Positions 14,173 through 35,866 of a stretch of DNA of 51,526 nt are shown here, piece by piece. A program made the position numbers and the translations under genes. The stretch's first letter is position 1. Every line of letters starts with the position of its first letter. The stretch covers positions 1-51,526 of the forward strand of contig CAYOYC010000001.1 in assembly GCA_964408125.1 (NCBI GenBank), read 5' to 3'. A model generated the notes under the pieces. That model worked only from the letters and a program-made list of their open reading frames with translations. It was not told where the DNA came from and did not search any database. The stretch is from Candidatus Woesearchaeota archaeon. GTDB lineage: Archaea; Nanobdellota; Nanobdellia; Pacearchaeales; GW2011-AR1.

Positions 14173-14174
14173 TT

Positions 14175-14477: not shown

Positions 14478-14478
14478 A

Positions 14479-15281: not shown

Positions 15282-15282
15282 A

Positions 15283-16839: not shown

Positions 16840-16840
16840 A

Positions 16841-21034: not shown

Positions 21035-21072
21035 TTCTGAAACTCATCTCGTCGATATATCTATGATAAAGG

Positions 21073-21080
21073 TTTATAAA
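21073..21080 (+). promoter_or_regulatory. TATA box (aaggTTTATAAAcc) centred 26 nt upstream of the secY ATG
   Basis: Spacing implies transcription starts at or next to the ATG (leaderless secY mRNA). No SD is present. Confidence 0.5.
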
Positions 21081-21101
21081 CCAAATTTATCTTCATAATT
21101 T

Positions 21102-22466
21102 ATGGCTTTCAGTGATATGCTTCACAATTTACCTGAAGTTAAAAATCCAGCGGAGAAAAAACTTTCATTTAATGTTAAATTAAAGTGGACTTTGATAATT
21201 TTATCTGCATTCTTTATTCTTGCAAATATTCCTCTTTATGGACTTGCGTCTTCCGCGTTATCTAGATTTGAATATTTAGCTATTTTATTGGGAACTGACT
21301 TTGGTTCTATTATTTCTTTGGGTATTGGCCCTATCGTTTTAGCTTCTCTGATTTTACAATTGCTTGTTGGTGCACAGATAATTCAGATGAATACAAAAAC
21401 ACCTGAGGGGAAAAAACAATTTCAAGCAATGCAAAAACTATTGACAATACTATTCATTTTATTTGAGGCAATTGTTTACGTGATGATGAGGGGACTTGAG
21501 GCCTTGCCCGGATTTGAATTTTTGGTAATATTTCAACTTGTACTTGGCGGATTGTTAATATTATTTATGGACGATGTGGTTCAGAAGTGGGGATTTGGAT
21601 CTGGTATATCTTTGTTTATTGCGGCTGGAATTGGGTGGAGATTGTTCTCGCAATTATTCCAATTTATTAATCCGAGTGGTGCAATCGAAGCATCTGGAAA
21701 AGTTTTAGTTTTATTTACATCAATTATGAATGGAGATACTACTGGTTTCGCATTAGCATTCTTTGCAATTCTGGTAACTGCTGCTCTTTTTGTTCTTGTT
21801 GTTTGGGCTCAGTCTCTAAAGGCAGAAATACCTTTATCATTTGATAGAGTAAGGGGCTATGGAATAAGATGGCCATTACAATTCTTTTATACTGGAGTTT
21901 TACCTGTTATTTTAGTATCTGCACTTTCTGCAAATCTACAATTGGTTGCTTCACTTTTTCAAAATTGGCTTGGACACGCTACATGGCTTGGTGGATTTTC
22001 GGGAGGAACTCCTATTTCTGGTTTTGCATATTGGATACACTCGACACCCATATTACAAGAAATAATTACTGGAAGTTTTAGGTGGATTTATGCGGCTCAG
22101 GCTGCTGGGCATGTGTTATTTTATGTACTATTCTCTATGTTGTTTGCTTATTTCTGGATGAAGACATCTGGACAAGATTCTGCAAATCAGGCAAAGAATA
22201 TTATGGGCTCTGGGTTAAGTATGCCTGGATTTAGAAAAGACCCAAGAGTTATAGAAGCGATATTACAAAGATATATTTTACCACTGACAATAATGGGCGG
22301 TGCGGCAATAGGTTTACTTGCATCTCTTGCAGATTTACTTGGTGCAATGGTTGGTGGAACTGCAATATTATTAGCTGTCATGATCTTATATCAACTTTAC
22401 CAAAACATAGCACAGCAACATGCTGTTGATATGAATCCTGCGTTTAGGGGATTGTTTGGTGGATAA
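21102..22466 (+). CDS. secY: preprotein translocase subunit SecY
   Basis: 10-TM protein; GIGPIVLASLILQLL, GSGISLFIAAGI, GMPGFRKDPR; follows L15. Confidence 0.93.
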   Translation: MAFSDMLHNLPEVKNPAEKKLSFNVKLKWTLIILSAFFILANIPLYGLASSALSRFEYLAILLGTDFGSIISLGIGPIVLASLILQLLVGAQIIQMNTKTPEGKKQFQAMQKLLTILFILFEAIVYVMMRGLEALPGFEFLVIFQLVLGGLLILFMDDVVQKWGFGSGISLFIAAGIGWRLFSQLFQFINPSGAIEASGKVLVLFTSIMNGDTTGFALAFFAILVTAALFVLVVWAQSLKAEIPLSFDRVRGYGIRWPLQFFYTGVLPVILVSALSANLQLVASLFQNWLGHATWLGGFSGGTPISGFAYWIHSTPILQEIITGSFRWIYAAQAAGHVLFYVLFSMLFAYFWMKTSGQDSANQAKNIMGSGLSMPGFRKDPRVIEAILQRYILPLTIMGGAAIGLLASLADLLGAMVGGTAILLAVMILYQLYQNIAQQHAVDMNPAFRGLFGG

Positions 22467-22522
22467 ATGAAAAATAAAAGCAATATCTGTGGGGCGTATT
22501 CCCTCCGGGAAAAGGTGATAAA

Positions 22523-23044
22523 ATGAAGTTTATGAAAATAATGCTTATAGTTTATGCAATAGGTATAGCTGTGACCTTTTTGTGGAATCAACTTCCTATA
22601 ATAAAAAACTCTGTTCATTTTGTTTTAGATCCAACTCTTGGTGGTTTACTTAGTTGGAATCTGAATGTTGGGTTTATTCTTATTATGATTCTTTTTTCCT
22701 TAATTACTACGCTGGGGCAGAAATATTTTAGTGATCAAGATGCATTAAAAATACTAAAAGAAGAACAAAAATTAATTCAGCAGGAAATGAAATTATATAG
22801 ACAGGATCCTAAAAAAACTGCGGAACTTACTTCAAAATCATTTGAATTAACAATGAAAACTATGCCCATAACTATGAGACCTACTCTGTATACGATGTTG
22901 CCATTTTTACTAACGTTTAAGTGGTTTTATGATTACTTTGCACTGAATCCTGTTAAAATACTTGGTATGCATTGGCTTTTGGCATATTTCGTTGTTTTAA
23001 TGGTATCTGCGCCTTTACTTAAAAAAGTATTAAAGGTTCATTAG
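22523..23044 (+). CDS. DUF106 / EMC3-TMCO1-like membrane protein (archaeal YidC/Oxa1-like insertase candidate)
   Basis: A TM, a coiled-coil segment (LKEEQKLIQQEMKLYRQDPKK) and more TMs, in the conserved position after secY. AGGTGAT SD lies 5 nt upstream. Confidence 0.7.
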   Translation: MKFMKIMLIVYAIGIAVTFLWNQLPIIKNSVHFVLDPTLGGLLSWNLNVGFILIMILFSLITTLGQKYFSDQDALKILKEEQKLIQQEMKLYRQDPKKTAELTSKSFELTMKTMPITMRPTLYTMLPFLLTFKWFYDYFALNPVKILGMHWLLAYFVVLMVSAPLLKKVLKVH

Positions 23045-23087
23045 TTTCTCGGTTAAAGAAAGTTACTGGATTTTGGAGAAAATGGTT

Positions 23088-23930
23088 TTAAGATTTACTT
23101 AATCTTTTTTTAGTCTTCTTTGCTTTTTTTACAAATTCGTCATATTTCAGAATTCCGAGTTCGGAAACAACTCCTGTTAAAAAAGCTTTTTTTGTAAAAT
23201 CAAATGCCGGATTGACAACTTTTATATTTTTATTTCTTTCATCCCACACTTCTCTTCCCGATCTTTGTTCTATTTTTACACTTTTTGTATATTTCAAAGA
23301 TACTCCACAAGAATATGATGGAATGCTATGTTCTTTAGCTAGATTGCAAAGCATAGATGTTCCTATTTTGTTAATAACTCCGCCATTCATAAAGGCATCT
23401 GAGCCGAATAAAAATACATCACATGACTTAATTGCTTGTTCTGCGGCCAAATCTGGAAATATAACTACCTTTATTCCACATTTTGCTAATTCTTCTGCCG
23501 TCTTTTTGCCTTGCATTAATGGTTCAACTTCTAAAGTATATACGACAAAATTCTTCTTTTCCACTTTTTTTGCATATTTTAAAATTTCAATTACGGTTGA
23601 GGAGTGGCAATGAGAAAAAACATTCATGTTTTCCTTTATAAGATAGGTCCCGAAGTACGCTATTTTCTTTTTTGATTTTTCTATATAATCTGTTAATTTT
23701 TTTGCTGTTTGTATTTTGTTTCTCGATCTTTTTATTATCTCAATAGAATTTTGTAATAATGGTTCTGTTGGTCTTGCAGAAATAATTTTCTTTATTGATT
23801 CTTTGTCTGATCTCATTATTGCAGCCCTAATCCCGTTTATGGCTATATTGTTCGCACCTTGGATCTTTATGTCTTTGATATCTTGAATTATTTCGTTAAA
23901 TTTAGCAAGCTCTCTTTCCTCTTTTTTCAT
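23088..23930 (-). CDS. eIF-2B alpha/beta/delta family protein, candidate ribose-1,5-bisphosphate isomerase
   Basis: IQGANNIAINGIRA..., VFSHCHSSTV, GSDAFMNGGVINKIGT fit the IF-2B fold family. Confidence 0.65.
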   Translation of the reverse strand: MKKEERELAKFNEIIQDIKDIKIQGANNIAINGIRAAIMRSDKESIKKIISARPTEPLLQNSIEIIKRSRNKIQTAKKLTDYIEKSKKKIAYFGTYLIKENMNVFSHCHSSTVIEILKYAKKVEKKNFVVYTLEVEPLMQGKKTAEELAKCGIKVVIFPDLAAEQAIKSCDVFLFGSDAFMNGGVINKIGTSMLCNLAKEHSIPSYSCGVSLKYTKSVKIEQRSGREVWDERNKNIKVVNPAFDFTKKAFLTGVVSELGILKYDEFVKKAKKTKKRLSKS

Positions 23931-23950
23931 ATTCGTTTAAAGATTTGTTA

Positions 23951-23980
23951 TTATAAAAAGGTTTCCCCAAGATTTATAAG
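23951..23980. promoter_or_regulatory. back-to-back divergent TATA boxes (ttataaaaag for the minus gene, gatttataag for the plus gene)
   Basis: Each box centre lies about 26 nt from its ATG (23930 on minus, 24002 on plus). Confidence 0.45.
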
Positions 23981-24001
23981 TTTGGGTTATTGTGTAGTAC
24001 T

Positions 24002-24868
24002 ATGCTAGAGATGATTATTAAGCCAAAAAGAGCTGAAAGAAGACCGTGGGAAATGTTCTTTATAGGATTGATTTATTCCTCAATTGCTCTTCTGGTTGTA
24101 AGTTTTGTTTTTTCTTGGGACAGTGTGCTTAGTAAATACAGCGGAATTCTTTTAGTCTTACTAACCGTCTTGGCATGTTTGCCGTTCATGTATTATATAA
24201 TAAAACTAGAGGAGGGAAAAGATTTAGAAATTAATGATCAGGGGCAGCTTGTTAAGGAGCATTGGAAGGCGCTAAAGGCCTTAATGTGGCTATTCCTGGG
24301 CTTCGTAATTGGATTTTCTTTTTGGTATATTGTTTTGCCAGCACAGACGGCTACTAGTTTTAACGCACAAATAGAAATCTTTTGTTCAATTAACAGTCCT
24401 AATAACTATGTAAATTGCTTAGAGCAAAATGGTATTTCTGCCATAACTGGGGGCGCAACGTCTAATGCTGAATTTACACTGGGGATATTTTCTAATAATG
24501 TTCGTGTTTTAATTGTAACGTTATTTTTCTCATTAATATTCGGGGCTGGTGCTATTTTTATTTTAGTCTGGAACGCTTCTGTTATCGCTACTGCCATTGG
24601 TATGTTCGCAAAGGGTACATTAGCTGGTTTACCATGCGGATTATTCAGATATTTAATACACGGGCTTCCTGAAATTGCTGCATATTTCGTAGCTGCTTTA
24701 GCTGGTGGAATTATTTCTGTTGCAATAATAAGAAAAGATTTAGATGGACTCAGAAAATGGAGTATTTTACAAGATGCAATTGTTTTGGTTATTATTGCTT
24801 TACTTATATTGCTGGTGTCTGCTGTTGTCGAGGTATATTTAACGCCTCAGTTGATAAAAATATGCTAA
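24002..24868 (+). CDS. SpoIIM/DUF95-like integral membrane protein
   Basis: Multi-TM with the IHGLPEIAAYFVAALAGG motif. ATG at 24002 chosen by promoter spacing over TTG at 23990. Confidence 0.6.
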   Translation: MLEMIIKPKRAERRPWEMFFIGLIYSSIALLVVSFVFSWDSVLSKYSGILLVLLTVLACLPFMYYIIKLEEGKDLEINDQGQLVKEHWKALKALMWLFLGFVIGFSFWYIVLPAQTATSFNAQIEIFCSINSPNNYVNCLEQNGISAITGGATSNAEFTLGIFSNNVRVLIVTLFFSLIFGAGAIFILVWNASVIATAIGMFAKGTLAGLPCGLFRYLIHGLPEIAAYFVAALAGGIISVAIIRKDLDGLRKWSILQDAIVLVIIALLILLVSAVVEVYLTPQLIKIC

Positions 24869-24925
24869 TAACTACATATACTTCACTATAAAAAATCTTT
24901 TAAATGGTGATATTCTCTAGTATTG

Positions 24926-25060
24926 ATGGCAGCATACACATGTCGATTTTGTGGATACAGAATACAGAAGGATAATAAACCTGATAAGTGCAATTATTGT
25001 GGCAAGGAAGGCGGAATGTCTGAAATTGAGAGCGCCGAAGGGCTTCTTGATGAACTATAA
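24926..25060 (+). CDS. 44-aa zinc-ribbon (rubredoxin-like) protein
   Basis: Not in the ORF track. MAAYTCRFCGYRIQKDNKPDKCNYCGKEGGMSEIESAEGLLDEL has two CxxC pairs. A TATA-like box is centred about 25 nt upstream. Confidence 0.55.
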   Translation: MAAYTCRFCGYRIQKDNKPDKCNYCGKEGGMSEIESAEGLLDEL

Positions 25061-25090
25061 ATTTAAAAGCCACATTCCTCTATAAAAAAC

Positions 25091-26098
25091 ATGAATCCGT
25101 TATTATTCATAGCAATTGTAATTAGTTTCGTAGTAACTTTCTTCGGTTTAATCAGTTGGATAAAGAAATGTAAAAAAATAGGTCTGCTTTGGGAAGATAT
25201 GAATAAATTCGGCAAGCCGAAAAACGTTGCTGGTTCTGGAGGGATAGTTGTTTTGATTGGATTCATACTTGGTGTTTTATTTTATATCGCTATTCAGACC
25301 TTTATACTTGGGCAGACAAATTCTATTACTATTAAGATATTCGCCTTACTATCTGTTGTGGCCATAGTTGGCATAACCGGATTAGTTGATGATTTCTTAG
25401 GATGGCATCATGGTGGTTTGTCTGTGGGCGTAAGGTTGGTTATGGCTTTAATGGCCTCTATACCTCTGATTGTTATTAATGCTGGTGATTCTTCCATCTC
25501 CCTTCCTTTCTTGGGAAATATCGATCTGGGTTTATTTTATCTAGTTGTACTAATTCCGGTTGGGATAGCAGCAACTACTACTCTCTATAATTTTTTAGCG
25601 GGTATAGATGGATTAGAAGCTGGGCAGGGAATTTTAGTTGTGGGTTTTTTAAGTTATGTTGCCTATGCGAATAATGCTGCTTGGCTTGCTATAATAGGGT
25701 TATGTATGGTCGCTTCTCTTTTGGCGTTTTGGTTTTTTAATAAAAATCCTGCTAGGGTTTTTCCAGGAGATGTACTAACATATGCTGTCGGTGGATTGAT
25801 TGGGACAATGGCTATATTAGGAAATTTTGAAAAAATTGCTTTTATTGTATTCATTCCTTATATAATAGAAATGGTTTTGAAACTTCGTGGTGGGATGAAT
25901 CCGCCGAGAAAACAATCTTTTGGAATACCTCAGAAAGATGGTAGTTTAAAGATGCCGTATGAGAAAGTTTATGGGTTGACACATTTTTCCATGTGGTTCT
26001 TGTTTAAGTTTAAAGAGAAAGTTTACAAGAATGATGTTGTTTATTTGATTTACATAATACAGATAATTTTTATATTGATCGGATTTGCGATGATGTGA
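25091..26098 (+). CDS. GT4-family polyprenyl-phosphate N-acetylhexosamine-1-phosphate transferase (AglH/WecA/MraY-like)
   Basis: GLVDDFLGW, NFLAGIDGLEAG, PARVFPGDV. About 10 TM segments. Confidence 0.85.
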   Translation: MNPLLFIAIVISFVVTFFGLISWIKKCKKIGLLWEDMNKFGKPKNVAGSGGIVVLIGFILGVLFYIAIQTFILGQTNSITIKIFALLSVVAIVGITGLVDDFLGWHHGGLSVGVRLVMALMASIPLIVINAGDSSISLPFLGNIDLGLFYLVVLIPVGIAATTTLYNFLAGIDGLEAGQGILVVGFLSYVAYANNAAWLAIIGLCMVASLLAFWFFNKNPARVFPGDVLTYAVGGLIGTMAILGNFEKIAFIVFIPYIIEMVLKLRGGMNPPRKQSFGIPQKDGSLKMPYEKVYGLTHFSMWFLFKFKEKVYKNDVVYLIYIIQIIFILIGFAMM

Positions 26099-26154
26099 GG
26101 AGTAAAAACCTGTCTTTAACAAGGTTTTTAAAAGCGATTTTCTCTAGTTAATTA

Positions 26155-27726
26155 ATGGTTAAGAGTGACTTGAATAAAATTTTAGATGAGGGAAAATCTA
26201 TTATAAAAAATAAAAAGTTTCAAATTGGATTGACTATTATTTTATTTTTAGCCATATTAATTAGTTCGACTAGTTTGAGAATGAGTAATTTGCCGAATTT
26301 GGTTGATTCAACTACTGGGTTATATACTTCAAATGATTTGGATTCGCTTTATTTTTATAGGATGGCTGAAACTCAACTTGAATTAGGATATTTGCCAGAG
26401 GTTGATGTAATGAGAGCTCCTGGATATAACTCTAGTTGGGTTCCTGAGATTATCGATAATGTTCTAATATGGAACTATAAAATATTAAATTTCTTTAATT
26501 CGGATATTAGTTTTAATTATGCTTCTACGATTTCTGCTCCTATAATTTTTGCAATATTATTGATTGCGTTTTTCTTTTTATGTCTTTTGTTAACTAAGTC
26601 AAAAACTGCTAGTTTAATTGCTTCTGCATTTTTAGCTTATTCACCTGCATTTTTATTTAGAAGTGTTGCTGGATTCTATGACCACGATCATTTAGGTGTT
26701 TTGGCTGTTATATTACTGGTTATTGCTTCTGTGTTTGCATTGAAAAGATTTGAAAAAACATGGAAAGAAAGCGTTTTATGGGGGGTTGTGATTGGATTTT
26801 TCACTTCGCTTGTTTTCGTTTCTTGGGGCGGTGCGATAACTTTTGTGTTTTTATTTTTACCGATGGCTTTGTTTTTCCATTATTTAACTGTAGATGATGA
26901 TAAAAAAATGAAGTTTATTATTTTTTATGCCTTATGGATTTTGACAATGATTATTTTTACTCCTATTATTGGTGGTTCTATGAGAAATATGATTGGAAGA
27001 GTAATGGACTCACAAGGTCTTGCGGTTCTATTTGTTTTTGGGTTTTCAATAGTAGATCTTTTATTTATTAAATTTAAGAAAAATTTAAAATTTATTAATG
27101 AAAAATATGAAAAATTATATTCTTTAGGAATTACAGCTGTTTTGGGATTGGTTGGTTTAATGGCTATTGGTAAACATCCTATAAAAATGCTTCAGAGTGT
27201 TTGGGCTTCTCTTATTTATCCTTTCTTTGGAGAGTTTGGAGGTAGACTGAGCTCTACTGTTGCTGAAAATGCACAACCCTACTTAGTTGATTTAATGAAT
27301 CAGACTGGGAAGATGGTGTTTTGGTTATTTTTGTTTGGACTCGTTTTTGTTGGTATAGGTTTTGCTAAAAATGTTAAAAGCTTGAAAAATAGAATTTATC
27401 TGAGCGTTAGTGCAGTTGTTGTTTTAATTGCGATATTATGTTCTAGAATATCTGGTTCGCATATATTAAATGGAGAAAATATGCTTAGTCAAGCTATTTA
27501 TCTTGTTGGCGCTTTGGGGTTTTTTGCTTGTTTACTTTATGTTTATAATAAAGAAAAATTTAGCATATCTGGAGAAAGTGTTTTATTATTTTCAATAGCT
27601 TTAGCTTCAGTGATAAATGCTCGTGCGGCAGTTAGAAGTTTCTTTTTAATTACACCATTTACTTGTTTGATTGCTGGTTATTTTATTGCACAAATAGTAG
27701 AAAAATTGGAGGTTAGAAATGAATAA
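26155..27726 (+). CDS. aglB: oligosaccharyltransferase AglB/STT3, N-terminal multi-TM part (split gene, part 1)
   Basis: EL1 motif SNDLDSLYFYRMAE, second acidic motif GFYDHDHLG, and an EL5 TIXE/SVSE-like STVAENAQP. It lacks the WWDYG domain. Confidence 0.75.
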   Translation: MVKSDLNKILDEGKSIIKNKKFQIGLTIILFLAILISSTSLRMSNLPNLVDSTTGLYTSNDLDSLYFYRMAETQLELGYLPEVDVMRAPGYNSSWVPEIIDNVLIWNYKILNFFNSDISFNYASTISAPIIFAILLIAFFFLCLLLTKSKTASLIASAFLAYSPAFLFRSVAGFYDHDHLGVLAVILLVIASVFALKRFEKTWKESVLWGVVIGFFTSLVFVSWGGAITFVFLFLPMALFFHYLTVDDDKKMKFIIFYALWILTMIIFTPIIGGSMRNMIGRVMDSQGLAVLFVFGFSIVDLLFIKFKKNLKFINEKYEKLYSLGITAVLGLVGLMAIGKHPIKMLQSVWASLIYPFFGEFGGRLSSTVAENAQPYLVDLMNQTGKMVFWLFLFGLVFVGIGFAKNVKSLKNRIYLSVSAVVVLIAILCSRISGSHILNGENMLSQAIYLVGALGFFACLLYVYNKEKFSISGESVLLFSIALASVINARAAVRSFFLITPFTCLIAGYFIAQIVEKLEVRNE

Positions 27727-28897
27727 CAAAAATAAAATTTACTACTGGATTGCGTTGGTTTTAGTTTTAGGGGTATCTCTCATTGCTCTATTTGGGAATC
27801 CTTTATCTAAAACTCCTGGAATGTATCAGATAACTTCTGCGCAGGCACAATATATTGGAGCTTCGGCTAACGTTCAGTGGCAGAATGCGATGGCTTGGAC
27901 GAGAAATAATACTGGTAAAGACGATATTTTTGTTCATTGGTGGGATTATGGTTATTTTGTGCAAACGCTTGGCGAGAGGCCTAGTGTGACGGATGGAGGG
28001 CATGCTGGCGGACAGGATGGAAATCATTATATCGGAAGATATATCTTAACTACTCCGAATCCAAAGACAGCTCTTAGTTATATGAAAACATGGAACGTTT
28101 CTTACTTATTGATTGATCCAACTGAAATGGGCAAATATGGTGCATTTTCTAAGATTGGAAGTAATGACTCTTGGGATCGAATTTCTGCTGGAATATTTGG
28201 TGGAGAATCTGATGAGGCGCAAATACAGGAAACTGCAAATGGATTGACTCGAATTTATCAACTAGGCGGATGTGTTGATGAAGATATCTCATATATTGAT
28301 AATAATAGTAAAGTATTTTTGCCTGGAATTACCATAAGCCGAACACAACAAATGCAATGTAATTCTTATGTAATTGGAGTAATTGTTGAATTTAAAGATA
28401 AAAATGGACAAACTAGTATTGAACAGCCCATGGGTGTGTATTATTATAACAATAAACAATATAGAATACCAATAAAGAATGTTTTCTATAATGGACAAAT
28501 GATTAGTTTTGAAAAAGGAATTGATTCGGTAGTTTATTTGATTCCAAAAGTAGATGATAAGAGTGGAAAAATTGATCTTGTTGGAGCGATGATATATCTT
28601 TCTCCAAGAACGTTTAATAGCTTAATGGGAAGACTTTACATCTTGGGAGATTATTATAACGAATATCCAACACTAAAAGAAGCAATATTTGAAGATGATC
28701 CGGTTGTTAGTTATTTTAAGCAATTTGCTGGAGGAGTATTGAATGAATTTGTTTGGTATGGTGGAATAAGAGCTCCGTTGAAAATTTGGGAGGTAAATTA
28801 TCCAGAGGGAACGCCAGTGCATCGGGAGTTTGTTTTTGGACGTTCTGAGGGGGTTATTTTTGGAGGGCTAGATCATTTATTTAAGGAAGATGGATAA
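27719..28897 (+). CDS. aglB: oligosaccharyltransferase AglB/STT3, last TM plus WWDYG C-terminal domain (split gene, part 2)
   Basis: One TM, then IFVHWWDYGYFVQTLGERP. GGAGGT SD lies 5 nt before the ATG, which overlaps the part 1 stop (ATGAATAA). Confidence 0.75.
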   Translation: MNNKNKIYYWIALVLVLGVSLIALFGNPLSKTPGMYQITSAQAQYIGASANVQWQNAMAWTRNNTGKDDIFVHWWDYGYFVQTLGERPSVTDGGHAGGQDGNHYIGRYILTTPNPKTALSYMKTWNVSYLLIDPTEMGKYGAFSKIGSNDSWDRISAGIFGGESDEAQIQETANGLTRIYQLGGCVDEDISYIDNNSKVFLPGITISRTQQMQCNSYVIGVIVEFKDKNGQTSIEQPMGVYYYNNKQYRIPIKNVFYNGQMISFEKGIDSVVYLIPKVDDKSGKIDLVGAMIYLSPRTFNSLMGRLYILGDYYNEYPTLKEAIFEDDPVVSYFKQFAGGVLNEFVWYGGIRAPLKIWEVNYPEGTPVHREFVFGRSEGVIFGGLDHLFKEDG

Positions 28898-29825
28898 AAC
28901 CCATATCTCTCTTTGTTGGGAAGATAAAGATGGTAATTATTCCAAATTCCCCGCCACAACCATTCTTTCTATCTTACAAAACAATAATAATATATTTTTG
29001 CACTTAATTACGCCGGGGATATCATCTGAAAATGAATTTAAAATAAAAAAAATTATAAAAAAAAATAATACCTCTTTTAAATTTTATAAATCTTTTAATT
29101 CAGAACAAAAAAAACTACTAAATATTATCAAAGAAAATAATAAATCCTCTTTTGGAATCGGTGCGTATCTTAGGCTTTTAATTCCCACTCTCGTTTCTAA
29201 AAAAATAAAAAAGATAATTTATATTGATTCAGACATTATAGTAAACGGCAATATAAATGGACTATGGAAAATAGATTTATTGGATAATTTTATTGCGGGA
29301 GTTAATCACGAAAATCATCCTAAAATTAAAATTTGGAAATTAAAACAATATATAAATTCTGGAGTTATGCTTATCAATTTAAAAGAAATTAGAAAAATTA
29401 ATTTAAGTAACTTTGTTCAAAAAACAATAAAAAGACATTCCAATGATTTTTATTTTACTGGTCTAAATTCATGTGCTGACCAAGACATACTCAATTTGAT
29501 GTTTAATGGCAAGATAGCTCTTTTACCTGAAACTTATAATTTTCAAGTTAGAAGAACATATCGAGAAGGGCAAATTATTTACCACTATGGCTGGCTATAC
29601 AAACCGTTCAGATTTAAACCCGTTTTCATAGACAAAGAATATAAAGACTTATATTTCCACTATTTTGACAAAACACCTTGGGCCGGATGGAGACCTAAAT
29701 GGAATTTCAAAAAAGGATTGATGACTAGCAGTGTATACTCTTTTTCTATAAAAATATTAAAAATTACGAAATTAGAATATCTCATAAAAAGGTTATTGAA
29801 TAAAAAAATAAAAAAAAGAATTTAG
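28890..29825 (+). CDS. GT8-family glycosyltransferase
   Basis: YLRLLIP, IIYIDSDIIV (DxD), INSGVMLINL, DQDILN. Confidence 0.8.
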   Translation: MDKTHISLCWEDKDGNYSKFPATTILSILQNNNNIFLHLITPGISSENEFKIKKIIKKNNTSFKFYKSFNSEQKKLLNIIKENNKSSFGIGAYLRLLIPTLVSKKIKKIIYIDSDIIVNGNINGLWKIDLLDNFIAGVNHENHPKIKIWKLKQYINSGVMLINLKEIRKINLSNFVQKTIKRHSNDFYFTGLNSCADQDILNLMFNGKIALLPETYNFQVRRTYREGQIIYHYGWLYKPFRFKPVFIDKEYKDLYFHYFDKTPWAGWRPKWNFKKGLMTSSVYSFSIKILKITKLEYLIKRLLNKKIKKRI

Positions 29826-30814
29826 AATTCCTCGGATTTTTCCGAAATTTTTTTTATATAAAAACTACTAGACAGTTTTCTTTCCAATTCTCTTGTAAAC
29901 ATCTTGGAATATTTTTTATACCACTTCTTTAAATTTTCTTCACTAATTTCAGAAATATTATTGATAATAACAACCGGAAATTTCCTATGTAAACCATCCA
30001 TGGCATTATTTACTGTTTCAATTATTGGAATTTGGCCGAGTAATAAGGTTTCCCACGTTCTGTGACAATCTAGACCTGCTCCAACTGGTGAAAACCCGAA
30101 GGCATATTTTGCCTGCTCTTTCCACATTTTGCATCTTGGAAGTTTTTCTTTCTGGAAATAAATTAAAGGATTATTAAGTAATTTTATATAAAGATCAGAC
30201 CTTCTCTTAGATGTTCTATTTAAATGAAAATTGGCAAATATCTTCATATTTTTACCCAAAACTTCTTTGATATTTATAATTTCTCTCTCTTGCCTTTCTG
30301 GACTTTTTATATTTTCACCAAAAAACTGAGAAGTGAAAAGAAAGTGATAATCAATTCCAATTGGTATTGTGGTAATTTTATTGCTTTCTAAATCATTATT
30401 CTGTGCAAACCAATGATATAAATATTTATTATTTAACAATTTTCTATATTTTGAAGTTGAAAAATCTGAATCTCCGGTTATTAAAACAAACTTCCAACTT
30501 ATCTTAGGGAGGAATTTCTCTATGAAATAATCCATAAAATCCAAGCTAACGTAAATTGTTTTTGGTTTTGTTTTTACTATATTTTTATAAGACAGGTATG
30601 CTAGTGGCTTTCCCAATACTGATCTAAAAAATATCTGCTTTGGATAATATATTGGGTAAACATCACAAGACATTGCTATTTTTTTATTCCAAATAAATTC
30701 TATATTTTTTATATATTTTTTCTTATCTTTTTCTAAGAATGTAAAATAGAAAAATGATGGCAACGCCTTTGCCCTTAGCCAAATTTGGGAAAATTTCATT
30801 TGAAGATAACCCAA
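29822..30814 (-). CDS. putative glycosyltransferase (exostosin/GT47-like C-terminal motif)
   Basis: FGFSPVGAGLDCHRTWETLLLGQIPII resembles the GT47 C-terminal signature. Its position inside the glycan island supports the call. Family assignment is uncertain. Confidence 0.4.
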   Translation of the reverse strand: MGYLQMKFSQIWLRAKALPSFFYFTFLEKDKKKYIKNIEFIWNKKIAMSCDVYPIYYPKQIFFRSVLGKPLAYLSYKNIVKTKPKTIYVSLDFMDYFIEKFLPKISWKFVLITGDSDFSTSKYRKLLNNKYLYHWFAQNNDLESNKITTIPIGIDYHFLFTSQFFGENIKSPERQEREIINIKEVLGKNMKIFANFHLNRTSKRRSDLYIKLLNNPLIYFQKEKLPRCKMWKEQAKYAFGFSPVGAGLDCHRTWETLLLGQIPIIETVNNAMDGLHRKFPVVIINNISEISEENLKKWYKKYSKMFTRELERKLSSSFYIKKISEKSEEF

Positions 30815-31410
30815 TCGTTCCCTAGTCCAAAAATAATATTTTTTATTATTTTATTTGAGAATTTATCCACTGCTCTCTTAACGTCTGGATAACCAGAACC
30901 ATAATCATGCCCGGAGATTATTCCACCATTATTAACTAAGGGGTAATATTCTCTTATGTCTTCATCTATATATGGGGAGAAATGATTACCATCTATATAT
31001 AAGAAATCCACTTTTTCCCTAATGTCTTTTATGGCCTCTTTTGAAAATTTCTCTATCCAAACTATCTTGTGTTTGAATGGTTCTAGTAGTTTGTGCGCAC
31101 TTATTTTTGCACTTTCTACGCTAGAACAATAAATATCTTTCTTATATTCTTCATATTTTTCATATGGGTCAATTAAATATATTTTTTATATATTTAAATT
31201 TTTTAAAATCTGATATGTGTGCTCTCCTTTGAAAACACCTATCTCACATGCAATTATTTCTTTGTCAATAAAAAGTTTTTCTGCCTCGATTACTGCTTGT
31301 CTTTTTTTTAGTTCGCTTAATTTTCTTAAAGAAATTCCAAAAAAACCAGAAGAGAGTGTTAGGTGAAAACCAATTAAATGAAAAGGGTAGTTTATTATTC
31401 TTTTTAGCAT
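30796..31410 (-). pseudogene. class I SAM-dependent methyltransferase (Methyltransf_24/TylF-like) interrupted by one in-frame TAA
   Basis: Track ORFs 31186..31410 and 30796..31011 and the stretch between them are all in one frame: ...EIGVFKGEHTYQILKNLNI*KIYLIDPYEKY...REKVDFLYIDGNHFSPY...GGIISGHDY. The only disruption is TAA at 31186-31188. Confidence 0.7.
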
Positions 31411-31440
31411 ATATCCTAGATTATTTGTTTATTTAAATAG

Positions 31441-32439
31441 TTAACGCATAACATCTTTTAAAAAAATTTTTAATTCTTCTTCTTTGGATCTTATTTTTCT
31501 TCTATTTTTAGATGTCATACATTCGCGATTCACAAATTCTAAATATTTTTTATCATCCTTATCTAATTCTATTATTTTTTGAATCATTTTAACATATGAA
31601 TTTTTGAAGTCCTCAAAGTTAATGAATGAACTAGTATTAAAATATTCTTTTAGATTTGGCGCTCCACGATAAATCGGAATTGCCCCACCTAGCATTACAT
31701 TTGGTAATTTTTCTGTTATATACTCATTTTCAAAAGAATTTTCAAAACAAATCACAAATTTATACTGCGAGTAAAATTTCGGATTGTCTGCCCAAGTCTT
31801 TGGCAGTTTTGAATTGTCTGCATTAGCTAGATTTGTTTTCCCATAAATATCTACTTTTTTATATCCTGAGAGTTTTTTTGCAAAATCTATTCTATCAAAT
31901 GCTGATTCATTAGATATAATTATACAACAAAATTTATTTGGCACTCTTGATATTTTCTTCTTATTAAACAATTTGTTTATATTATCTAGAATATACTTAA
32001 CCTGTAAAAAATATGGAAGATTTAGGATATTTTTGCCCTTTATATCATTGCTAATAATGGCATATTCTCCTTGTGGGGGGTTTTTAGCAATATGTTTTAT
32101 GCGATTTAAATAGTCCCTCCTCATGTTCCCTAATTTTATATCCAATAGCTTTCTTGGTAAAATTTTATTTAATATGCTGAAATTTATCTTAGTTCTTTTT
32201 GTGATATATTCTAAAACCTTAAATAAATTGACCTTGTAGTATAAATTTTCACCAGAAACCAATATTTTCTTGGGTGAATTTTTGTATTCTTTTGATAGTT
32301 TTTTATGCACATACTCAATTACTAAATTGGGGTTATTTTTTGCTTCTATAAAATCTTTTGAGAGATATTTTGCAATAAAACTATTATTTAGGGGTTGCAA
32401 ATTATACGGATTTGAATAATAGATTTTTAGTGAACTCAT
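31441..32439 (-). CDS. GT10-family alpha-1,3/4-fucosyltransferase
   Basis: YKFVICFENSFENEYITEKLPNVMLGGAIPIYRGAPNLKEYFNTSSFINFEDFKN closely parallels the Helicobacter FutA-type motif YKFxLCFEN...YVTEK...IPIYWG...DFN..SF.N..DFKN. Confidence 0.85.
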   Translation of the reverse strand: MSSLKIYYSNPYNLQPLNNSFIAKYLSKDFIEAKNNPNLVIEYVHKKLSKEYKNSPKKILVSGENLYYKVNLFKVLEYITKRTKINFSILNKILPRKLLDIKLGNMRRDYLNRIKHIAKNPPQGEYAIISNDIKGKNILNLPYFLQVKYILDNINKLFNKKKISRVPNKFCCIIISNESAFDRIDFAKKLSGYKKVDIYGKTNLANADNSKLPKTWADNPKFYSQYKFVICFENSFENEYITEKLPNVMLGGAIPIYRGAPNLKEYFNTSSFINFEDFKNSYVKMIQKIIELDKDDKKYLEFVNRECMTSKNRRKIRSKEEELKIFLKDVMR

Positions 32440-32460
32440 TATATTCTAAATAGGGAAGGG

Positions 32461-32468
32461 TTTTTAAA
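32461..32468. promoter_or_regulatory. single symmetric TATA box (gggTTTTTAAAtc) shared by two divergent genes
   Basis: Box centre about 32465 is 26 nt from the minus-strand ATG at 32439 and 25 nt from the plus-strand ATG at 32490. The intergenic spacer is only 50 nt. Confidence 0.45.
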
Positions 32469-32489
32469 TCTTAAATAATAAAAAATATA

Positions 32490-33146
32490 ATGGAATATGA
32501 CGCAAAATATCACAAGGGGGTTCATTCTAATATCATATTTGATAGTGAATTATACAAACTAAAGGGATTGGTTTACTTTAGAAAAAATTTAAAAAACATA
32601 AAATGTTTAGATAAAAAAACAATTGTAGAGTATGGCTGTGGAATGGGACAAAACATTTACCCAATAAGAAAGTTAACTGCCTGGGGCTATGATATATCTA
32701 ACTATGCTTTAAACTTCTGCAAGAATCTTGGAATAAATATAATCTCTGACAAAAAAATAATACCCGCATCAGACATAGTCTTATGCAATCACGTATTGGA
32801 ACACCTAGAGTGCCCACTGGAGCACCTTAAATTCATTAAGAGTAAATTAAAAAAAGACGGGATAATTGTGTTGGTGCTTCCAAAAGAAAAACACGAAAAA
32901 ACAAATTTAAAGCCAGATAAGATTAATTATCATCTCTATTCCTGGAATTTTAGAACAATAAATAATCTTCTAGATGTGGCTGGATTTAAAGTTATTGATA
33001 ATAGCGAGTTTGGAGAGGTGGGTTATAACAGGTTAAGATTCTTGGCGAAAATAAACTTTGAAGTTTATTTTCAAATGATAAAATTTTTAGGTTTTTTTGT
33101 AGATAAAAAGGAAATTAGGGTTATAGCAACTCCGAAGAATGACTAA
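32490..33146 (+). CDS. class I SAM-dependent methyltransferase
   Basis: VEYGCGMGQN (motif I), DIVLCNHVLEHLECP, DGIIVLVLP. Confidence 0.8.
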   Translation: MEYDAKYHKGVHSNIIFDSELYKLKGLVYFRKNLKNIKCLDKKTIVEYGCGMGQNIYPIRKLTAWGYDISNYALNFCKNLGINIISDKKIIPASDIVLCNHVLEHLECPLEHLKFIKSKLKKDGIIVLVLPKEKHEKTNLKPDKINYHLYSWNFRTINNLLDVAGFKVIDNSEFGEVGYNRLRFLAKINFEVYFQMIKFLGFFVDKKEIRVIATPKND

Positions 33147-33153
33147 AAAAGTT

Positions 33154-33858
33154 TTATTTTTTAGCTATAACTAAAAAATTTTCCACATATAGATTCTTGG
33201 TTTTAAATTTTGAGAATATCAACCCTAAAATATTTAGCAGAAATATTATTGGGAAAAATAGGAATCTGATAACCTTTGGCAATTTTTCTCCCAATTCGTT
33301 TAAAAAAAATTGTCCAAACAAAAAAAAGATAGAATAGTTACCCATTATTTTTTCCGAACGCAATATTTTAAAGCCCTTACTCTCAAACAGATTCTTTGCA
33401 CCGTTTGGAGTAAATCTTCTAAAATCGTTTGGTAACTCATGCAATGGCCAAATAAAGGGAAATGAGATGAGTACTTTCCCCTTGGGCCTTAAAACTCTTT
33501 TAATCTCTAAAATAAGCAGATCCAAATCCCTCACGTGTTCTATAACTTGGAAAAGAACAATTGTATCAAAAGAGCTATCTTTAAGGGGGATGTTAATCCC
33601 ATCAAAAAATAAATCAATTTGTTCATTTAGGTGATTATGCCCGGGGTTTTCTATATCAATTCCTACATATCTATCTACTTTACCAAATAATTCTCTGTAC
33701 GGTTTTCTCCCACACCCAATATCTAAAACATCCCCCACCACAAGGCCTTTATATTTTTTAACTTTTTTTAAGAGCTCCCTTCTATCTAAATAGTTTTTTT
33801 TAAAAACAAGAGAAACAAGTCCTGGATAAAATTCTTCACGTGCTAAATACTTTTTCAT
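33154..33858 (-). CDS. class I SAM-dependent methyltransferase with C-terminal TM segments
   Basis: VLDIGCGRKPY, FDTIVLFQVIEHV, PKGKVLISFP; hydrophobic tail. Confidence 0.8.
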   Translation of the reverse strand: MKKYLAREEFYPGLVSLVFKKNYLDRRELLKKVKKYKGLVVGDVLDIGCGRKPYRELFGKVDRYVGIDIENPGHNHLNEQIDLFFDGINIPLKDSSFDTIVLFQVIEHVRDLDLLILEIKRVLRPKGKVLISFPFIWPLHELPNDFRRFTPNGAKNLFESKGFKILRSEKIMGNYSIFFLFGQFFLNELGEKLPKVIRFLFFPIIFLLNILGLIFSKFKTKNLYVENFLVIAKK

Positions 33859-34754
33859 TTTTCCATTCTTATGAGTTTTATTATTTTTAGTCTATATATA
33901 AAAAATCTTGCTAATTTAAACAAAAATCCCATAATGTTTTTATTTTTATACAAAAAACCATTATCTATTTTTTTTCTTATAACCACATAATTCTTTTTGT
34001 CTGGGAAAACATACTTATAATCCCAGGGTTTAATTTTACCCACATAATGAATAATTTTTGGTTTTTCTATTAGTTCTTCATACTCCTCTTTTGACAAATT
34101 CATTTCTTTCCCTCTTAAATCATAAATTGTTCTCTGTCTGTTCCAGTTTAAAGGCAATTTATTCCAATCTTTGCTAAAAACATCATTCAATAGCTCTTGG
34201 TCTCCCAAAGTTAGATTTGTTCCCTTAATCGCCAAATAATCTTCTACCTTTTTGGAATAATCAAGAAGATTCCATCTACCACAATCTATCAATAATACTC
34301 CTGCATTAAAATCTCTTTTTTTTTGTAGATACTTAATCTGATAATCATATACTGCTCCGATTGCTTTTTTGTTTAGGTTTTCTGAAAAAATCTCTAATAT
34401 GTCTCCTTCTACCACCAAATCACAGTCTAAATACAAAACTTTCTTTCTTTTTTCTAATAAAGGTATCTCTAGTCTATAGTAAGTAGCCTCGCTAACATGT
34501 CCCCAAAGCTTGGCATTGGAATACTTCTTTCTATTTGGCTTAATAAATTTTAGTTCGGCCTTGTTTTTTTTAATAAATTTCATTAATCTTTCCTTGTTTT
34601 TTTCACTAATTCCGCCATCAAAAATAAAAAAGGCAATTTTGCTATTATCTGAGCAATTTTCAATTATGGAATAAATGGTTACAAATAAGTGTATAAAATA
34701 ATTATTATCTGAAGATAAAAAAATCTTATACCTATCAAAAGCTTCCTTTTTCAT
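33855..34754 (-). CDS. GT8-family glycosyltransferase
   Basis: ATYYRLEIP, VLYLDCDLVV (DxD), FNAGVLLIDC, GDQELLN. Confidence 0.8.
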   Translation of the reverse strand: MKKEAFDRYKIFLSSDNNYFIHLFVTIYSIIENCSDNSKIAFFIFDGGISEKNKERLMKFIKKNKAELKFIKPNRKKYSNAKLWGHVSEATYYRLEIPLLEKRKKVLYLDCDLVVEGDILEIFSENLNKKAIGAVYDYQIKYLQKKRDFNAGVLLIDCGRWNLLDYSKKVEDYLAIKGTNLTLGDQELLNDVFSKDWNKLPLNWNRQRTIYDLRGKEMNLSKEEYEELIEKPKIIHYVGKIKPWDYKYVFPDKKNYVVIRKKIDNGFLYKNKNIMGFLFKLARFFIYRLKIIKLIRMEK

Positions 34755-34795
34755 CCTTCCAAAAACTCTATAAACTATTTAAAACTAATTGTTTT

Positions 34796-35806: not shown

Positions 35807-35866
35807 TCTTTCACCACTTAAAAATTAAAATAAGCCTTTAAATATATTAGAAAATAAATTTATTTA

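What the first reader, a model, noticed from the sequence alone, without database searches (positions are those of the whole stretch)
26155..28897. Oligosaccharyltransferase AglB/STT3 split into two translationally coupled ORFs between the TM core and the last TM plus WWDYG domain
Seen: ORF 26155-27726 carries the EL1 acidic motif (NDLDSLYFYR), the second acidic motif (YDHDHLG) and a TIXE/SVSE-like STVAE. ORF 27719-28897 carries one TM helix and the WWDYG motif. The break is an ATGAATAA overlap, with a strong GGAGGT Shine-Dalgarno 5 nt before the second ATG. That arrangement looks like an evolved two-gene design rather than a random frameshift. Established knowledge: in STT3/AglB/PglB these motifs jointly build the catalytic and sequon-binding site on a single polypeptide. 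A two-chain OST would be unusual, and I do not know of a characterised example.
Basis: partly seen in the sequence, partly recalled or inferred. Interest (0 to 1): 0.65.

Follow-up and report, generated by a model that had tools for sequence, protein, structure and literature searches.

The report
Naturally split archaeal oligosaccharyltransferase (AglB) gene
In this small DPANN archaeon and at least eight relatives, the enzyme that attaches sugar chains to proteins (AglB/STT3) is encoded by two conserved genes instead of the usual one, cut in the short loop before its last membrane helix; the cut is inherited, not a sequencing error, so the enzyme probably works as two chains.

Summary
ORF 26155-27726 (523 aa) is the membrane core of AglB/STT3 and carries DLD, DHD and TVAE. 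ORF 27719-28897 (392 aa) is one TM helix plus the WWDYG domain. They overlap by ATGAATAA.

The split is not an artefact. Independent assemblies from eight other samples break at the same loop position. The junctions differ: an 8-nt overlap, a 4-nt overlap, or toxin-antitoxin (TA) or other small genes inserted between the halves.

Both halves are under strong purifying selection (dN/dS about 0.1) and keep all family-invariant residues. The pair sits in the same syntenic slot (SecY-EMC3-IF2B-SpoIIM-GT4-AglB) that holds a single ~900-aa aglB in about 50 related Pacearchaeota/Woesearchaeota genomes. The concatenated halves model confidently as a complete OST fold (pLDDT 92.7). The break lies in the 5-residue cytoplasmic turn before the last TM helix.

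The split forms cluster together, with moderate support: 66% bootstrap and six signature residues, all at the junction. Random frameshifts in other relatives look quite different.

No paper in the searchable library describes a split AglB/STT3.

Best reading: one heritable gene fission that gives a two-chain OST. Trans-assembly and activity are inferred, not shown. The GGAGGT motif is real but not conserved.

The parts
26155..27726 (+). aglB N-half (523 aa): multi-TM catalytic core that ends in a short cytoplasmic tail (...AQIVEKLEVRNE*)
   Evidence: ORF listing. Pfam STT3 PF02516, E 5e-16. Hits to STT3A and fungal STT3 in PDB. dN/dS of 0.13 against the L004 ortholog.
26335..26343 (+). EL1 acidic motif D61-L-D63, within NDLDSLYFYR
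   Evidence: Translation. D63 is invariant and L62 at least 90% conserved across 93 family members.
26680..26688 (+). Second acidic motif D176-H177-D178, within YDHDHLG
   Evidence: Translation. D176 and H177 are at least 90% conserved. The motif aligns to the DNE of human STT3A.
27256..27267 (+). TIXE/SVSE-type motif T368-V-A-E371 in external loop 5
   Evidence: Translation. T368 is invariant; V369, A370 and E371 are at least 90% conserved.
27708..27713 (+). GGAGGT Shine-Dalgarno-like hexamer, 5 nt upstream of the ORF2 ATG and inside ORF1 codons L-E-V
   Evidence: Sequence. Not conserved in relatives. SD-like cores are rare in this window, 4-5 of 48 ORFs.
27719..27726 (+). ATGAATAA stop/start overlap: ORF2 ATG at 27719-27721, ORF1 TAA at 27724-27726
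   Evidence: L004 and L072 have the same overlap type (ATGAGTAA), the L001/L067 N-half stop reads ATGAGTAG, and L071 has ATGA. The ORF2/GT8 junction has the same style, ATGGATAA.
27719..28897 (+). aglB C-half (392 aa): Lys-rich N-terminus, one TM helix (equivalent to TM13), then the external globular domain
   Evidence: ORF listing. Pfam STT3-PglB_core. Pyrococcus AglB C-terminal domains, E 2e-12. dN/dS of 0.10 against L004.
27725..27793 (+). Last TM helix (ORF2 residues 3-25, NKNKIYYWIALVLVLGVSLIALF), predicted to act as an N-in signal anchor
   Evidence: Helix 526-548 in the AF2 model. Kyte-Doolittle peak. Signature residues E527, Y531, Y532 and A535 are shared by the split forms only.
27938..27952 (+). 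WWDYG motif (ORF2 residues 74-78)
   Evidence: Translation. Invariant in 93 family sequences.
28115..28150 (+). DPTEMGKYGAFS segment, aligned to the DK-motif region of Pyrococcus AglB (D133, K139 conserved)
   Evidence: Alignment to 2zag/5aza. D656 and K662 in concatenated numbering are at least 90% conserved. The exact motif register was not resolved.
25091..26098 (+). Upstream GT4 (AglH/Alg7-like polyprenyl-phosphate sugar-1-P transferase); part of the conserved N-glycosylation locus
   Evidence: Pfam Glycos_transf_4, E 4e-29. Synteny is conserved in genomes with split and with fused aglB.
28890..29825 (+). Downstream GT8 glycosyltransferase, overlapping the end of ORF2 by 8 nt; same operon
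   Evidence: Pfam Glyco_transf_8, E 1e-35. Junction ATGGATAA.

Best explanation
The single aglB gene was cut by a gene fission that has been inherited in one sub-lineage of Pacearchaeota/Woesearchaeota-type (DPANN) archaea. The cut lies in the 5-residue cytoplasmic turn between the penultimate and the last TM helix.

Gene 1 encodes the membrane core. It carries the metal- and LLO-binding acidic residues (D61/D63, D176-H-D178, E371) and EL5.

Gene 2 encodes a type-II signal-anchor protein. It has a Lys-rich cytoplasmic N-terminus, the TM13-equivalent helix and the external WWDYG/DK-region domain that binds the +2 Ser/Thr of the sequon.

In the window the two genes are co-transcribed within the glycosylation operon. 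The ATGAATAA stop/start overlap most likely couples their translation by termination-reinitiation.

Each chain is then inserted into the membrane separately. The two chains associate non-covalently through the large interface between the external loops and the C-terminal domain, and through TM13 packing, to rebuild one OST active site from two polypeptides.

Shown here: the split is real, conserved, under selection on both halves, orthologous to the single-gene aglB, and compatible with the complete OST fold. Inferred: translational coupling, assembly in trans and catalytic activity.
For: 1. Same break point in independent assemblies. L004, L072 and L071 have directly overlapping genes. L001, L002, L008, L003, L067-69 and L070 have other genes inserted between or next to the halves.
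2. The frame offset between halves differs among loci: +1 in the window, L004, L072 and L001, and +2 in L071 and L002. The overlaps also differ (8 nt or 4 nt). The break therefore persisted while the junction DNA changed.
3. dN/dS between split orthologs: 0.13 for the N-half and 0.10 for the C-half (window vs L004), and 0.08 for the C-half (L001 vs L008).
4. All residues invariant across 93 family members are retained in both halves.
5. The split pair occupies the same SecY-EMC3-IF2B-SpoIIM-GT4-AglB slot that holds a ~900-aa aglB in about 50 related genomes. No second aglB-like protein was found on the 79.5-kb window contig or on the 617-kb L001 contig.
6. The AF2 model of the concatenation has pLDDT 92.7 and pTM 0.92. 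Helices 495-520 and 526-548 flank the junction at residues 523/524. Foldseek matches STT3A, STT3B, PglB and AfAglB over about 700 columns at E 1e-16 to 1e-12. The family profile scores 2.5e-38 against STT3A and 2.5e-26 against AfAglB.
7. Split forms are monophyletic in the concatenated NJ tree (133/200 bootstraps). They share six signature residues, all within 12 residues of the break.
8. Genuinely random frameshifts in relatives look different: they fall inside helices, occur several per gene, and each is a singleton (L033, L076, L077).
9. The ORF2/GT8 junction uses the same 8-nt overlap style, so this is the normal operon junction form in this genome.
Against: There is no direct evidence of protein expression, complex formation or activity. 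Reads for this assembly could not be inspected.

Support for a single origin is only moderate: 66% bootstrap on the concatenation, 21% on the C-half alone, and the N-half tree is not monophyletic. One N-half (P0114) is a recombinant mosaic.

The AF2 model was built on a covalent concatenation with fused homologs in the alignment, so it cannot test assembly in trans.

The SD motif is not conserved.

In L003 the N-half is not within the 913 nt upstream of the C-half, which is all the contig holds on that side. Adjacency is therefore not proven everywhere.
Confidence: 0.8

Rival explanations
1. Assembly or sequencing indel: the organism has a normal single aglB, and a 1-nt error at about 27715-27725 splits the frame in this assembly.
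For: A single +1 shift would join the frames. Short-read MAG assemblies of 33% GC genomes have A-rich runs here (aaaaattggaggttagaaatgaataacaaaaataaaa). Reads could not be checked.
Against: The same break occurs in assemblies from eight other samples and from different pipelines (Logan, ENA, JGI, NCBI). In at least four loci whole genes sit between the halves. Junction-specific residues are shared only by split forms. The fused relatives have a different loop sequence, K(D/E)-E(T/S)xK(Y/P), so the window is not a fused-type allele with one base missing.
Confidence: 0.02
2. Decaying pseudogene: aglB was inactivated by a frameshift, and N-glycosylation is either lost or carried out by another copy elsewhere in the genome.
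For: DPANN genomes are reduced. Frameshifted aglB copies do exist in relatives (L033, L076, L077). Only 51.5 kb of this genome is visible.
Against: dN/dS is about 0.1 on both halves between split orthologs. All invariant catalytic and sequon-binding residues are kept. Both halves are clean full-length ORFs with proper starts in every member. The locus sits inside an intact glycosyltransferase operon. No second aglB homolog was seen on the 617-kb contig of L001 or on the 79.5-kb window contig.
Confidence: 0.04
3. Programmed +1 ribosomal frameshift or other recoding at the overlap restores a single full-length AglB; the two-ORF appearance is a regulatory device.
For: The ORFs overlap, and a +1 shift at AAT-GAA-TAA would read ...R-M-N-N-K..., which gives a loop of nearly normal length. 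An SD-like GGAGGT lies just upstream; SD-like elements can stimulate frameshifting in bacteria (general knowledge).
Against: The frame relationship is not conserved: +1 in some members and +2 in others. The SD is not conserved. In L001, L002 and L008 the halves are separated by 0.25-0.75 kb that contains other genes. Every C-half begins with its own ATG immediately after an upstream in-frame stop.
Confidence: 0.03
4. The split is real, but the halves no longer form one OST. One half has taken on a separate role (for example an LLO hydrolase or flippase-like core, or a free glycan- or peptide-binding surface protein), or only one half is functional.
For: TA and other genes are tolerated between the halves. 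In L003 the N-half is not adjacent. One N-half has recombined independently of its C-half. AglB sequence divergence is decoupled from the divergence of neighbouring genes in the locus.
Against: Both halves retain exactly the residues that matter only in the joint active site: the DxD motifs and TIXE on one chain, and WWDYG with the DK region on the other. Both show equally strong constraint. In every locus where both are seen, they remain in the same order and orientation within 0.8 kb.
Confidence: 0.1

Closest known systems
Single-subunit archaeal oligosaccharyltransferase AglB (e.g. Archaeoglobus fulgidus AglB-L, PDB 3WAJ/7E9S; Pyrococcus AglB C-terminal domains 2ZAG/3VU1)
   Same: Same GT-C/STT3 fold by profile (E 2.5e-26) and by Foldseek (E 1.5e-14). 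Same catalytic motifs: two acidic motifs, TIXE and WWDYG. Same genomic role beside a GT4 initiating transferase within a glycosyltransferase cluster.
   Different: All solved and characterised AglB, PglB and STT3 proteins are one polypeptide: a multi-TM domain (13 TM helices in the PglB and AfAglB structures) plus a C-terminal domain (PMC7226087). Here the last TM helix and the C-terminal domain are a separate gene product. Sequence identity to the solved structures is low, about 16-18% in structural alignment.
Fused ~900-aa aglB of related Pacearchaeota/Woesearchaeota (e.g. P0112, P0119, P0123; loci L005-L032)
   Same: 55-73% amino-acid identity, the same synteny and the same overall length when the two halves are summed (915 aa against 896-916 aa).
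   Different: These have a continuous TM12-TM13 loop...K-x-x-K-(D/E)-E-(T/S)-x-K-(Y/P)... The split forms instead read ...KKLExxNE* / M-x-x-E-x-K-x-YY..., with six junction-local signature substitutions.
Split protein-coding genes of Nanoarchaeota/DPANN (e.g. the split genes described in Nanoarchaeum equitans; recalled from general knowledge, not tested here)
   Same: Gene fission in a reduced DPANN genome, where both parts are retained and presumably reassemble as a complex.
   Different: To my knowledge AglB is not among the described cases. Here the halves are adjacent and probably translationally coupled rather than dispersed, and the product is a polytopic membrane enzyme whose active site spans the two chains.
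Alg13/Alg14 (EpsE/EpsF) versus fused MurG-like/Agl24 glycosyltransferases
   Same: A precedent in the N-glycosylation pathway: homologs exist both as one gene and as a membrane-anchor gene plus a catalytic-domain gene, with fissions and re-fusions during evolution (PMC4973528, PMC8993221).
   Different: It is a different enzyme family (GT-B GT28/GT1-like, cytoplasmic) and a different step. It is not the oligosaccharyltransferase.
Eukaryotic multi-subunit OST complex (STT3 plus Ost1/Wbp1/Swp1/Ost3/6 and others)
   Same: An OST built from several membrane polypeptides.
   Different: In eukaryotes the catalytic STT3 itself is a single chain and the partners are non-homologous accessory subunits. 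Here the catalytic subunit itself is divided.

Membership tests
STT3/AglB/PglB oligosaccharyltransferase (CAZy GT66, GT-C fold) | N-terminal polytopic membrane domain that matches the STT3 family model | tested here: met
   ORF1 vs Pfam PF02516: E 5e-16, 59.7 bits against a cutoff of 24.5. The family profile scores 2.5e-38 against human STT3A and 2.5e-26 against AfAglB.
STT3/AglB/PglB oligosaccharyltransferase (CAZy GT66, GT-C fold) | First acidic (DxD-type) motif in external loop 1 | tested here: met
   D61-L-D63 in NDLDSLYFYR. D63 is invariant in 93 sequences.
STT3/AglB/PglB oligosaccharyltransferase (CAZy GT66, GT-C fold) | Second acidic motif (DxD / DxE / DxH) | tested here: met
   D176-H-D178. 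D176 and H177 are at least 90% conserved. The motif aligns with D-N-E of STT3A.
STT3/AglB/PglB oligosaccharyltransferase (CAZy GT66, GT-C fold) | TIXE/SVSE motif in external loop 5 | tested here: met
   T368-V-A-E371. T368 is invariant and E371 at least 90% conserved.
STT3/AglB/PglB oligosaccharyltransferase (CAZy GT66, GT-C fold) | WWDYG motif in the C-terminal external domain | tested here: met
   ORF2 residues 74-78, invariant in 93 sequences. Pfam PF21436 is above its cutoff.
STT3/AglB/PglB oligosaccharyltransferase (CAZy GT66, GT-C fold) | DK or MI motif that forms the Ser/Thr pocket together with WWDYG | tested here: inconclusive
   The conserved DPTEMGKYGAF segment aligns to the DWAKFNAI (DK) region of Pyrococcus AglB, but with a register offset of one residue. 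D133 and K139 are at least 90% conserved. The motif type was not resolved.
STT3/AglB/PglB oligosaccharyltransferase (CAZy GT66, GT-C fold) | Overall three-dimensional fold of the TM domain plus C-terminal domain | tested here: met
   AF2 model of the concatenation: pLDDT 92.7, pTM 0.92. Foldseek top 19 hits are all STT3, PglB or AglB, with target-normalised TM-scores up to 0.69 over about 700 columns.
STT3/AglB/PglB oligosaccharyltransferase (CAZy GT66, GT-C fold) | Catalytic subunit encoded as one polypeptide | tested here: not met
   Two ORFs in different frames. The break is conserved in about 10 loci, several with intervening genes. This is the feature that makes it a variant.
STT3/AglB/PglB oligosaccharyltransferase (CAZy GT66, GT-C fold) | Transfers lipid-linked glycan to Asn of N-X-S/T | not testable with these tools
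   Requires biochemistry or genetics.
Conserved gene fission (split gene), as opposed to pseudogene or artefact | The same break point is found in independent genomes or assemblies | tested here: met
   Window, L004, L072, L071, L001, L002, L067-69, L070, L003 and L008.
Conserved gene fission (split gene), as opposed to pseudogene or artefact | Both parts are under purifying selection after the fission | tested here: met
   Nei-Gojobori dN/dS of 0.08-0.13 for pairs of split orthologs.
Conserved gene fission (split gene), as opposed to pseudogene or artefact | The parts are orthologous to one gene in relatives (same locus, collinear coverage) | tested here: met
   Fused genes in about 50 species-representative genomes have identical upstream synteny. 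The halves cover the fused alignment end to end.
Conserved gene fission (split gene), as opposed to pseudogene or artefact | The two products physically reassemble | not testable with these tools
   Only a covalent-concatenation model could be built.
Programmed ribosomal frameshift gene | Conserved frame relationship and a slippery or stimulatory signal at the overlap | tested here: not met
   The frame offset is +1 or +2 depending on the locus. The overlap is 8 nt, 4 nt or absent. The SD is not conserved.

The most novel reading that the evidence does not exclude
A clade of DPANN archaea uses an obligate two-chain oligosaccharyltransferase. The metal- and LLO-binding membrane core and the sequon-binding TM13 plus WWDYG domain are made as separate proteins and assemble in the membrane into one active site. 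This would be a natural split OST that arose once and has been kept through speciation. The intergenic gap it created has repeatedly captured toxin-antitoxin cassettes, and these now sit inside the operon of what may be the organism's only OST, which is essential in some archaea.
Probability: 0.7. Interest if true: 0.7.

Novelty: new variant of a known kind. Interest (0 to 1): 0.62.

Why it matters
Every characterised OST catalytic subunit (STT3, AglB, PglB) is a single chain. Its active site is formed jointly by the TM domain and the C-terminal domain.

A naturally split version that is maintained by selection would show that the last TM helix and the external domain can be inserted and docked in trans. 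It marks the TM12-TM13 turn as a permissive cut site. That is useful for engineering split or modular OSTs, for example by swapping sequon-binding domains, and for dissecting how the two domains cooperate.

It also adds a polytopic membrane enzyme to the list of DPANN gene fissions. And it shows how a fission junction can become a landing pad for toxin-antitoxin modules.

The limit is that this is one gene-fission event in an uncultured lineage, with no biochemical evidence yet.

Tried and rejected
1. Other independent splits. Short C-half-like proteins in the 1.84-billion-protein library (P0256, P0264, P0315, P0308, P0249, P0037) were examined. P0256, P0264 and P0315 still carry the tail of TM12, and the frame of P0264 is open to the contig edge. 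P0308, P0249 and P0037 were inspected by sequence only and their contigs were not checked. None gave evidence of a separate split, so I treat them as fragments of fused genes.

2. P0005 and P0012 (~385-399 aa) were first counted as split. Their N-termini have the fused-type loop (KD-ETxKY). P0005 starts at a contig edge, and P0012 lies on a 1.4-kb contig that barely holds it. Both were dropped.

3. P0217 (L076) and P0204 (L077), N-half-sized proteins in distant lineages, turned out to be frameshifts inside TM12 or across three frames. L033 has frameshifts at two other positions. These serve as examples of what random damage looks like.

4. I looked for repeat copies of the TA cassette flanking the L001 N-half, as a possible cause of the contig breaks in L067-69. 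No significant direct or inverted repeat was found.

5. The SD motif as a designed feature was rejected, because it is neither conserved nor typical of the window.

6. Literature searches for a split AglB, STT3 or PglB returned nothing relevant. The "split gene" hits concern Alg13/Alg14, and "split pglB" refers to a Neisseria O-glycosylation gene.

8. I could not settle whether this family has 13 TM helices or two extra ones. The profile alignment to STT3A overlaps itself around TM10, and the model shows more helices than 13. The break is therefore described by homology, as the turn before the last TM helix.


Full report
**Observation**

The window has two + strand ORFs, 26155-27726 (523 aa) and 27719-28897 (392 aa). 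The second ORF is in the +1 frame and starts at the first ATG after an in-frame stop at 27698-27700. The junction reads ttGGAGGTtagaaATGAATAAc. This gives GGAGGT at 27708-27713, a 5-nt spacer, the ATG at 27719 and the ORF1 stop TAA at 27724-27726.

ORF1 contains NDLDSLYFYR (D61, D63), YDHDHLG (D176-H-D178) and STVAE (T368...E371). ORF2 contains one hydrophobic helix (residues ~3-25) and WWDYG (residues 74-78).

Database matches agree with this assignment.
- Pfam assigns ORF1 to the STT3 N-terminal domain (5e-16) and ORF2 to the STT3/PglB/AglB core domain.
- PDB sequence searches hit STT3A and fungal STT3 for ORF1, and the Pyrococcus AglB C-terminal domains (2e-12) for ORF2.

**Is the split real?**

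I searched the 5.8-billion-protein collection with each half, fetched contigs and scanned one genome per GTDB species.

About 50 Pacearchaeota/Woesearchaeota species representatives carry one uninterrupted ~900-aa aglB. A group of assemblies from eight other samples and four data sources has the break at exactly the same alignment column.

| Locus | Proteins | Identity to window | Arrangement |
|---|---|---|---|
| L004 | P0002 | 81% (N) / 83% (C) | 8-nt overlap ATGAGTAA |
| L072 | P0003 | 77% (C) | 8-nt overlap ATGAGTAA |
| L071 | P0135 + P0009 | 57% / 64% | 4-nt overlap ATGA |
| L001 | P0111 + P0006, 617-kb contig | 66% / 66% | MNT nucleotidyltransferase and HepT toxin genes between the halves |
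| L008 | C-half 94% identical to L001 | 65% (C) | a different cassette, with an MNT gene abutting the C-half |
| L002 | P0113 + P0013 | 60% / 58% | a 71-aa ORF between the halves |
| L067-69 | P0114, three assemblies | 59% (N) | N-half followed by an MNT gene, then the contig ends |
| L070 | P0131 | 56% (N) | N-half followed by an NYN-domain gene |
| L003 | P0011 | 60% (C) | C-half preceded by a ParE toxin gene |

A one-base assembly error cannot explain genes inserted between the halves, nor the same break recurring across 56-83% sequence divergence.

The junction DNA differs among members. The overlap is 8 nt, 4 nt or absent, and the frame offset is +1 or +2, yet the protein break point is fixed. 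That argues against programmed frameshifting.

**Are both halves functional?**

Nei-Gojobori dN/dS between pairs that are both split is 0.13 (N-half) and 0.10 (C-half) for the window against L004. It is 0.10-0.13 for other C-half pairs and 0.08 for L001 against L008.

In an alignment of the concatenated window halves with 92 fused relatives, every invariant column is retained. These include D63, T368, W597-W-D-Y-G601 and others, and they are shared between the two ORFs.

The pair lies in the conserved block SecY - EMC3/YidC-like - IF-2B-like (minus strand) - SpoIIM - GT4 - AglB. That block holds the single aglB in relatives. Downstream come GT8, GT10, methyltransferase, GT8 and GT2 genes. It is therefore the aglB of the locus, not a spare copy. 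No other STT3-like protein was reported from the 79.5-kb window contig or the 617-kb L001 contig.

**Where is the cut?**

An AlphaFold2 model of ORF1+ORF2 joined end to end is confident (mean pLDDT 92.7, pTM 0.92). It places helix 495-520 and helix 526-548 on either side of junction 523/524, so the cut is in a 5-residue turn.

Foldseek aligns the model to STT3A, STT3B, PglB and A. fulgidus AglB over about 700 columns (E 1e-16 to 1e-12, target-normalised TM-score up to 0.69). The family profile aligns the two flanking helices to the last two TM helices of human STT3A.

Solved bacterial and archaeal OSTs have 13 TM helices joined by short cytoplasmic loops, plus an external C-terminal domain (PMC7226087). 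The cut therefore lies in the cytoplasmic turn that corresponds to TM12/TM13.

ORF2 starts M-N-N-K-N-K followed by the helix. That is the pattern of an N-in signal anchor, and it preserves the native topology. This family may have two extra TM helices relative to STT3A; I could not settle the count.

**Contrast with random damage**

Three relatives do show frameshifts. L033 has two, at different positions. L076 has one inside the TM12 helix. L077 runs through three frames. Each is a singleton with overlapping HSPs in different frames. The window clade looks nothing like these.

**One origin or several?**

- In a concatenated NJ tree the five taxa with both halves form a clade in 133 of 200 bootstraps.
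- The C-half tree recovers all eight split C-halves as a clade, but with 21% support.
- The N-half tree does not recover a clade. This is partly because P0114 is a mosaic: its ends are ~90% identical to P0111, and its middle is closer to a fused allele.
- Six alignment columns distinguish split from fused forms: A512, L518, E527, Y531, Y532 and A535. All lie within 12 residues of the break and are shared by members known only from one half.

I read this as a single fission, with later allele exchange and repeated independent insertions into the new intergenic site. Support for this reading is moderate.

AglB divergence is also decoupled from that of neighbouring genes. L016 has SecY 81% identical to the window but AglB only 42-50% identical. 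aglB alleles therefore seem to move among these genomes.

**Mechanism (inferred)**

In the window the genes are packed in an operon. The ORF2/GT8 junction has the same 8-nt ATGGATAA overlap. The ATGAATAA overlap therefore most likely gives termination-reinitiation coupling and near-equimolar synthesis.

The GGAGGT is a plausible helper, but it is not conserved and SD-like cores are uncommon in this window.

The two chains would be inserted independently and associate through TM13 packing and the large interface between the external loops and the C-terminal domain. One chain supplies the acidic and TIXE residues, and the other supplies the WWDYG/DK-region pocket.

**Comparison with known systems and novelty**

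By sequence, motifs and fold this is an AglB/STT3-family OST. The one family feature it fails is being a single polypeptide.

Full-text searches for a split AglB, STT3 or PglB found nothing relevant. The nearest precedent in the pathway is the Alg13/Alg14 pair against fused MurG-like/Agl24 enzymes, which is a different enzyme. Split genes are known in Nanoarchaeota (general knowledge). I rate this a new variant of a known kind.

**Verdict**

Confidence that this is a heritable, selected two-gene aglB is about 0.8. Trans-assembly and catalytic activity remain to be shown. Interest is 0.62.

Noticed in passing
L001:5239-6004; L008:74-641; L003:75-523; L070:7586-8125; L002:5799-6014; L067:7574-7759: The gap between the two aglB halves has repeatedly captured small mobile-type genes. 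These are MNT+HepT (L001, L067), a different MNT cassette in L008 even though its C-half is 94% identical to L001, ParE (L003), an NYN-domain gene (L070) and an unannotated 71-aa ORF (L002). In L001/L067 and L070 the inserted gene starts at the old C-half ATG: ATGAGTAG giving MSS..., and MKNENK... respectively.
   Followed up: partly
L067:6001-7581 (P0114) vs L001:3663-5246 (P0111): The N-half P0114 is a mosaic. Its first ~80 and last ~40 residues are ~90% identical to P0111, while the middle is closer (70-80%) to the fused allele P0120. This suggests recombination between split and fused aglB alleles.
   Followed up: partly
L016 and L070 vs window 21102-28897: The neighbouring genes and aglB disagree on relatedness. 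L016 has SecY 81%, IF-2B 71% and GT4 68% identical to the window, but its fused AglB is only 42-50% identical. This implies exchange or rapid turnover of aglB alleles in a conserved locus.
   Followed up: no
window 11559-26098: Gene order is conserved across dozens of Pacearchaeota/Woesearchaeota genomes: ribosomal-protein operon, SecY, EMC3/YidC-like insertase, IF-2B-like (minus strand), SpoIIM-like, GT4, then aglB. The secretion and insertion machinery and the N-glycosylation enzymes are physically linked.
   Followed up: partly
L033:6293-9097; L076:5001-7273; L077:2359-5032: Three relatives carry aglB genes broken by frameshifts at other positions: inside TM12, at two sites, or across three frames. 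They are probably pseudogenes or assembly errors.
   Followed up: partly
L008, L026, L041 (record titles): Contigs that carry this archaeal aglB are filed in MAGs labelled Absconditabacterales, Omnitrophota and Saccharibacteria. This is likely mis-binning of DPANN contigs into small-genome bacterial bins.
   Followed up: no
window 26155-28897 (model residues 386-488): The family profile aligns to the TM10 region of human STT3A twice (profile positions 380-396 and 446-462). The AF2 model also has more TM-length helices than 13. This clade of AglB may therefore carry two extra TM helices after EL5.
   Followed up: no
window, whole: The window is 33% GC. Only 4-5 of 48 long ORFs have an SD-like core upstream, while 1-, 4- and 8-nt stop/start overlaps are common on the + strand. 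Translation initiation here may rely more on coupling or leaderless starts than on SD pairing.
   Followed up: partly
window 28890-36445: Downstream of aglB lies a variable glycan-synthesis cluster: GT8, an RXYLT1-like ORF, GT10 fucosyltransferase-like, two methyltransferases, GT8 and GT2. Its content differs from the clusters downstream of aglB in L001, L002, L003 and L004.
   Followed up: no
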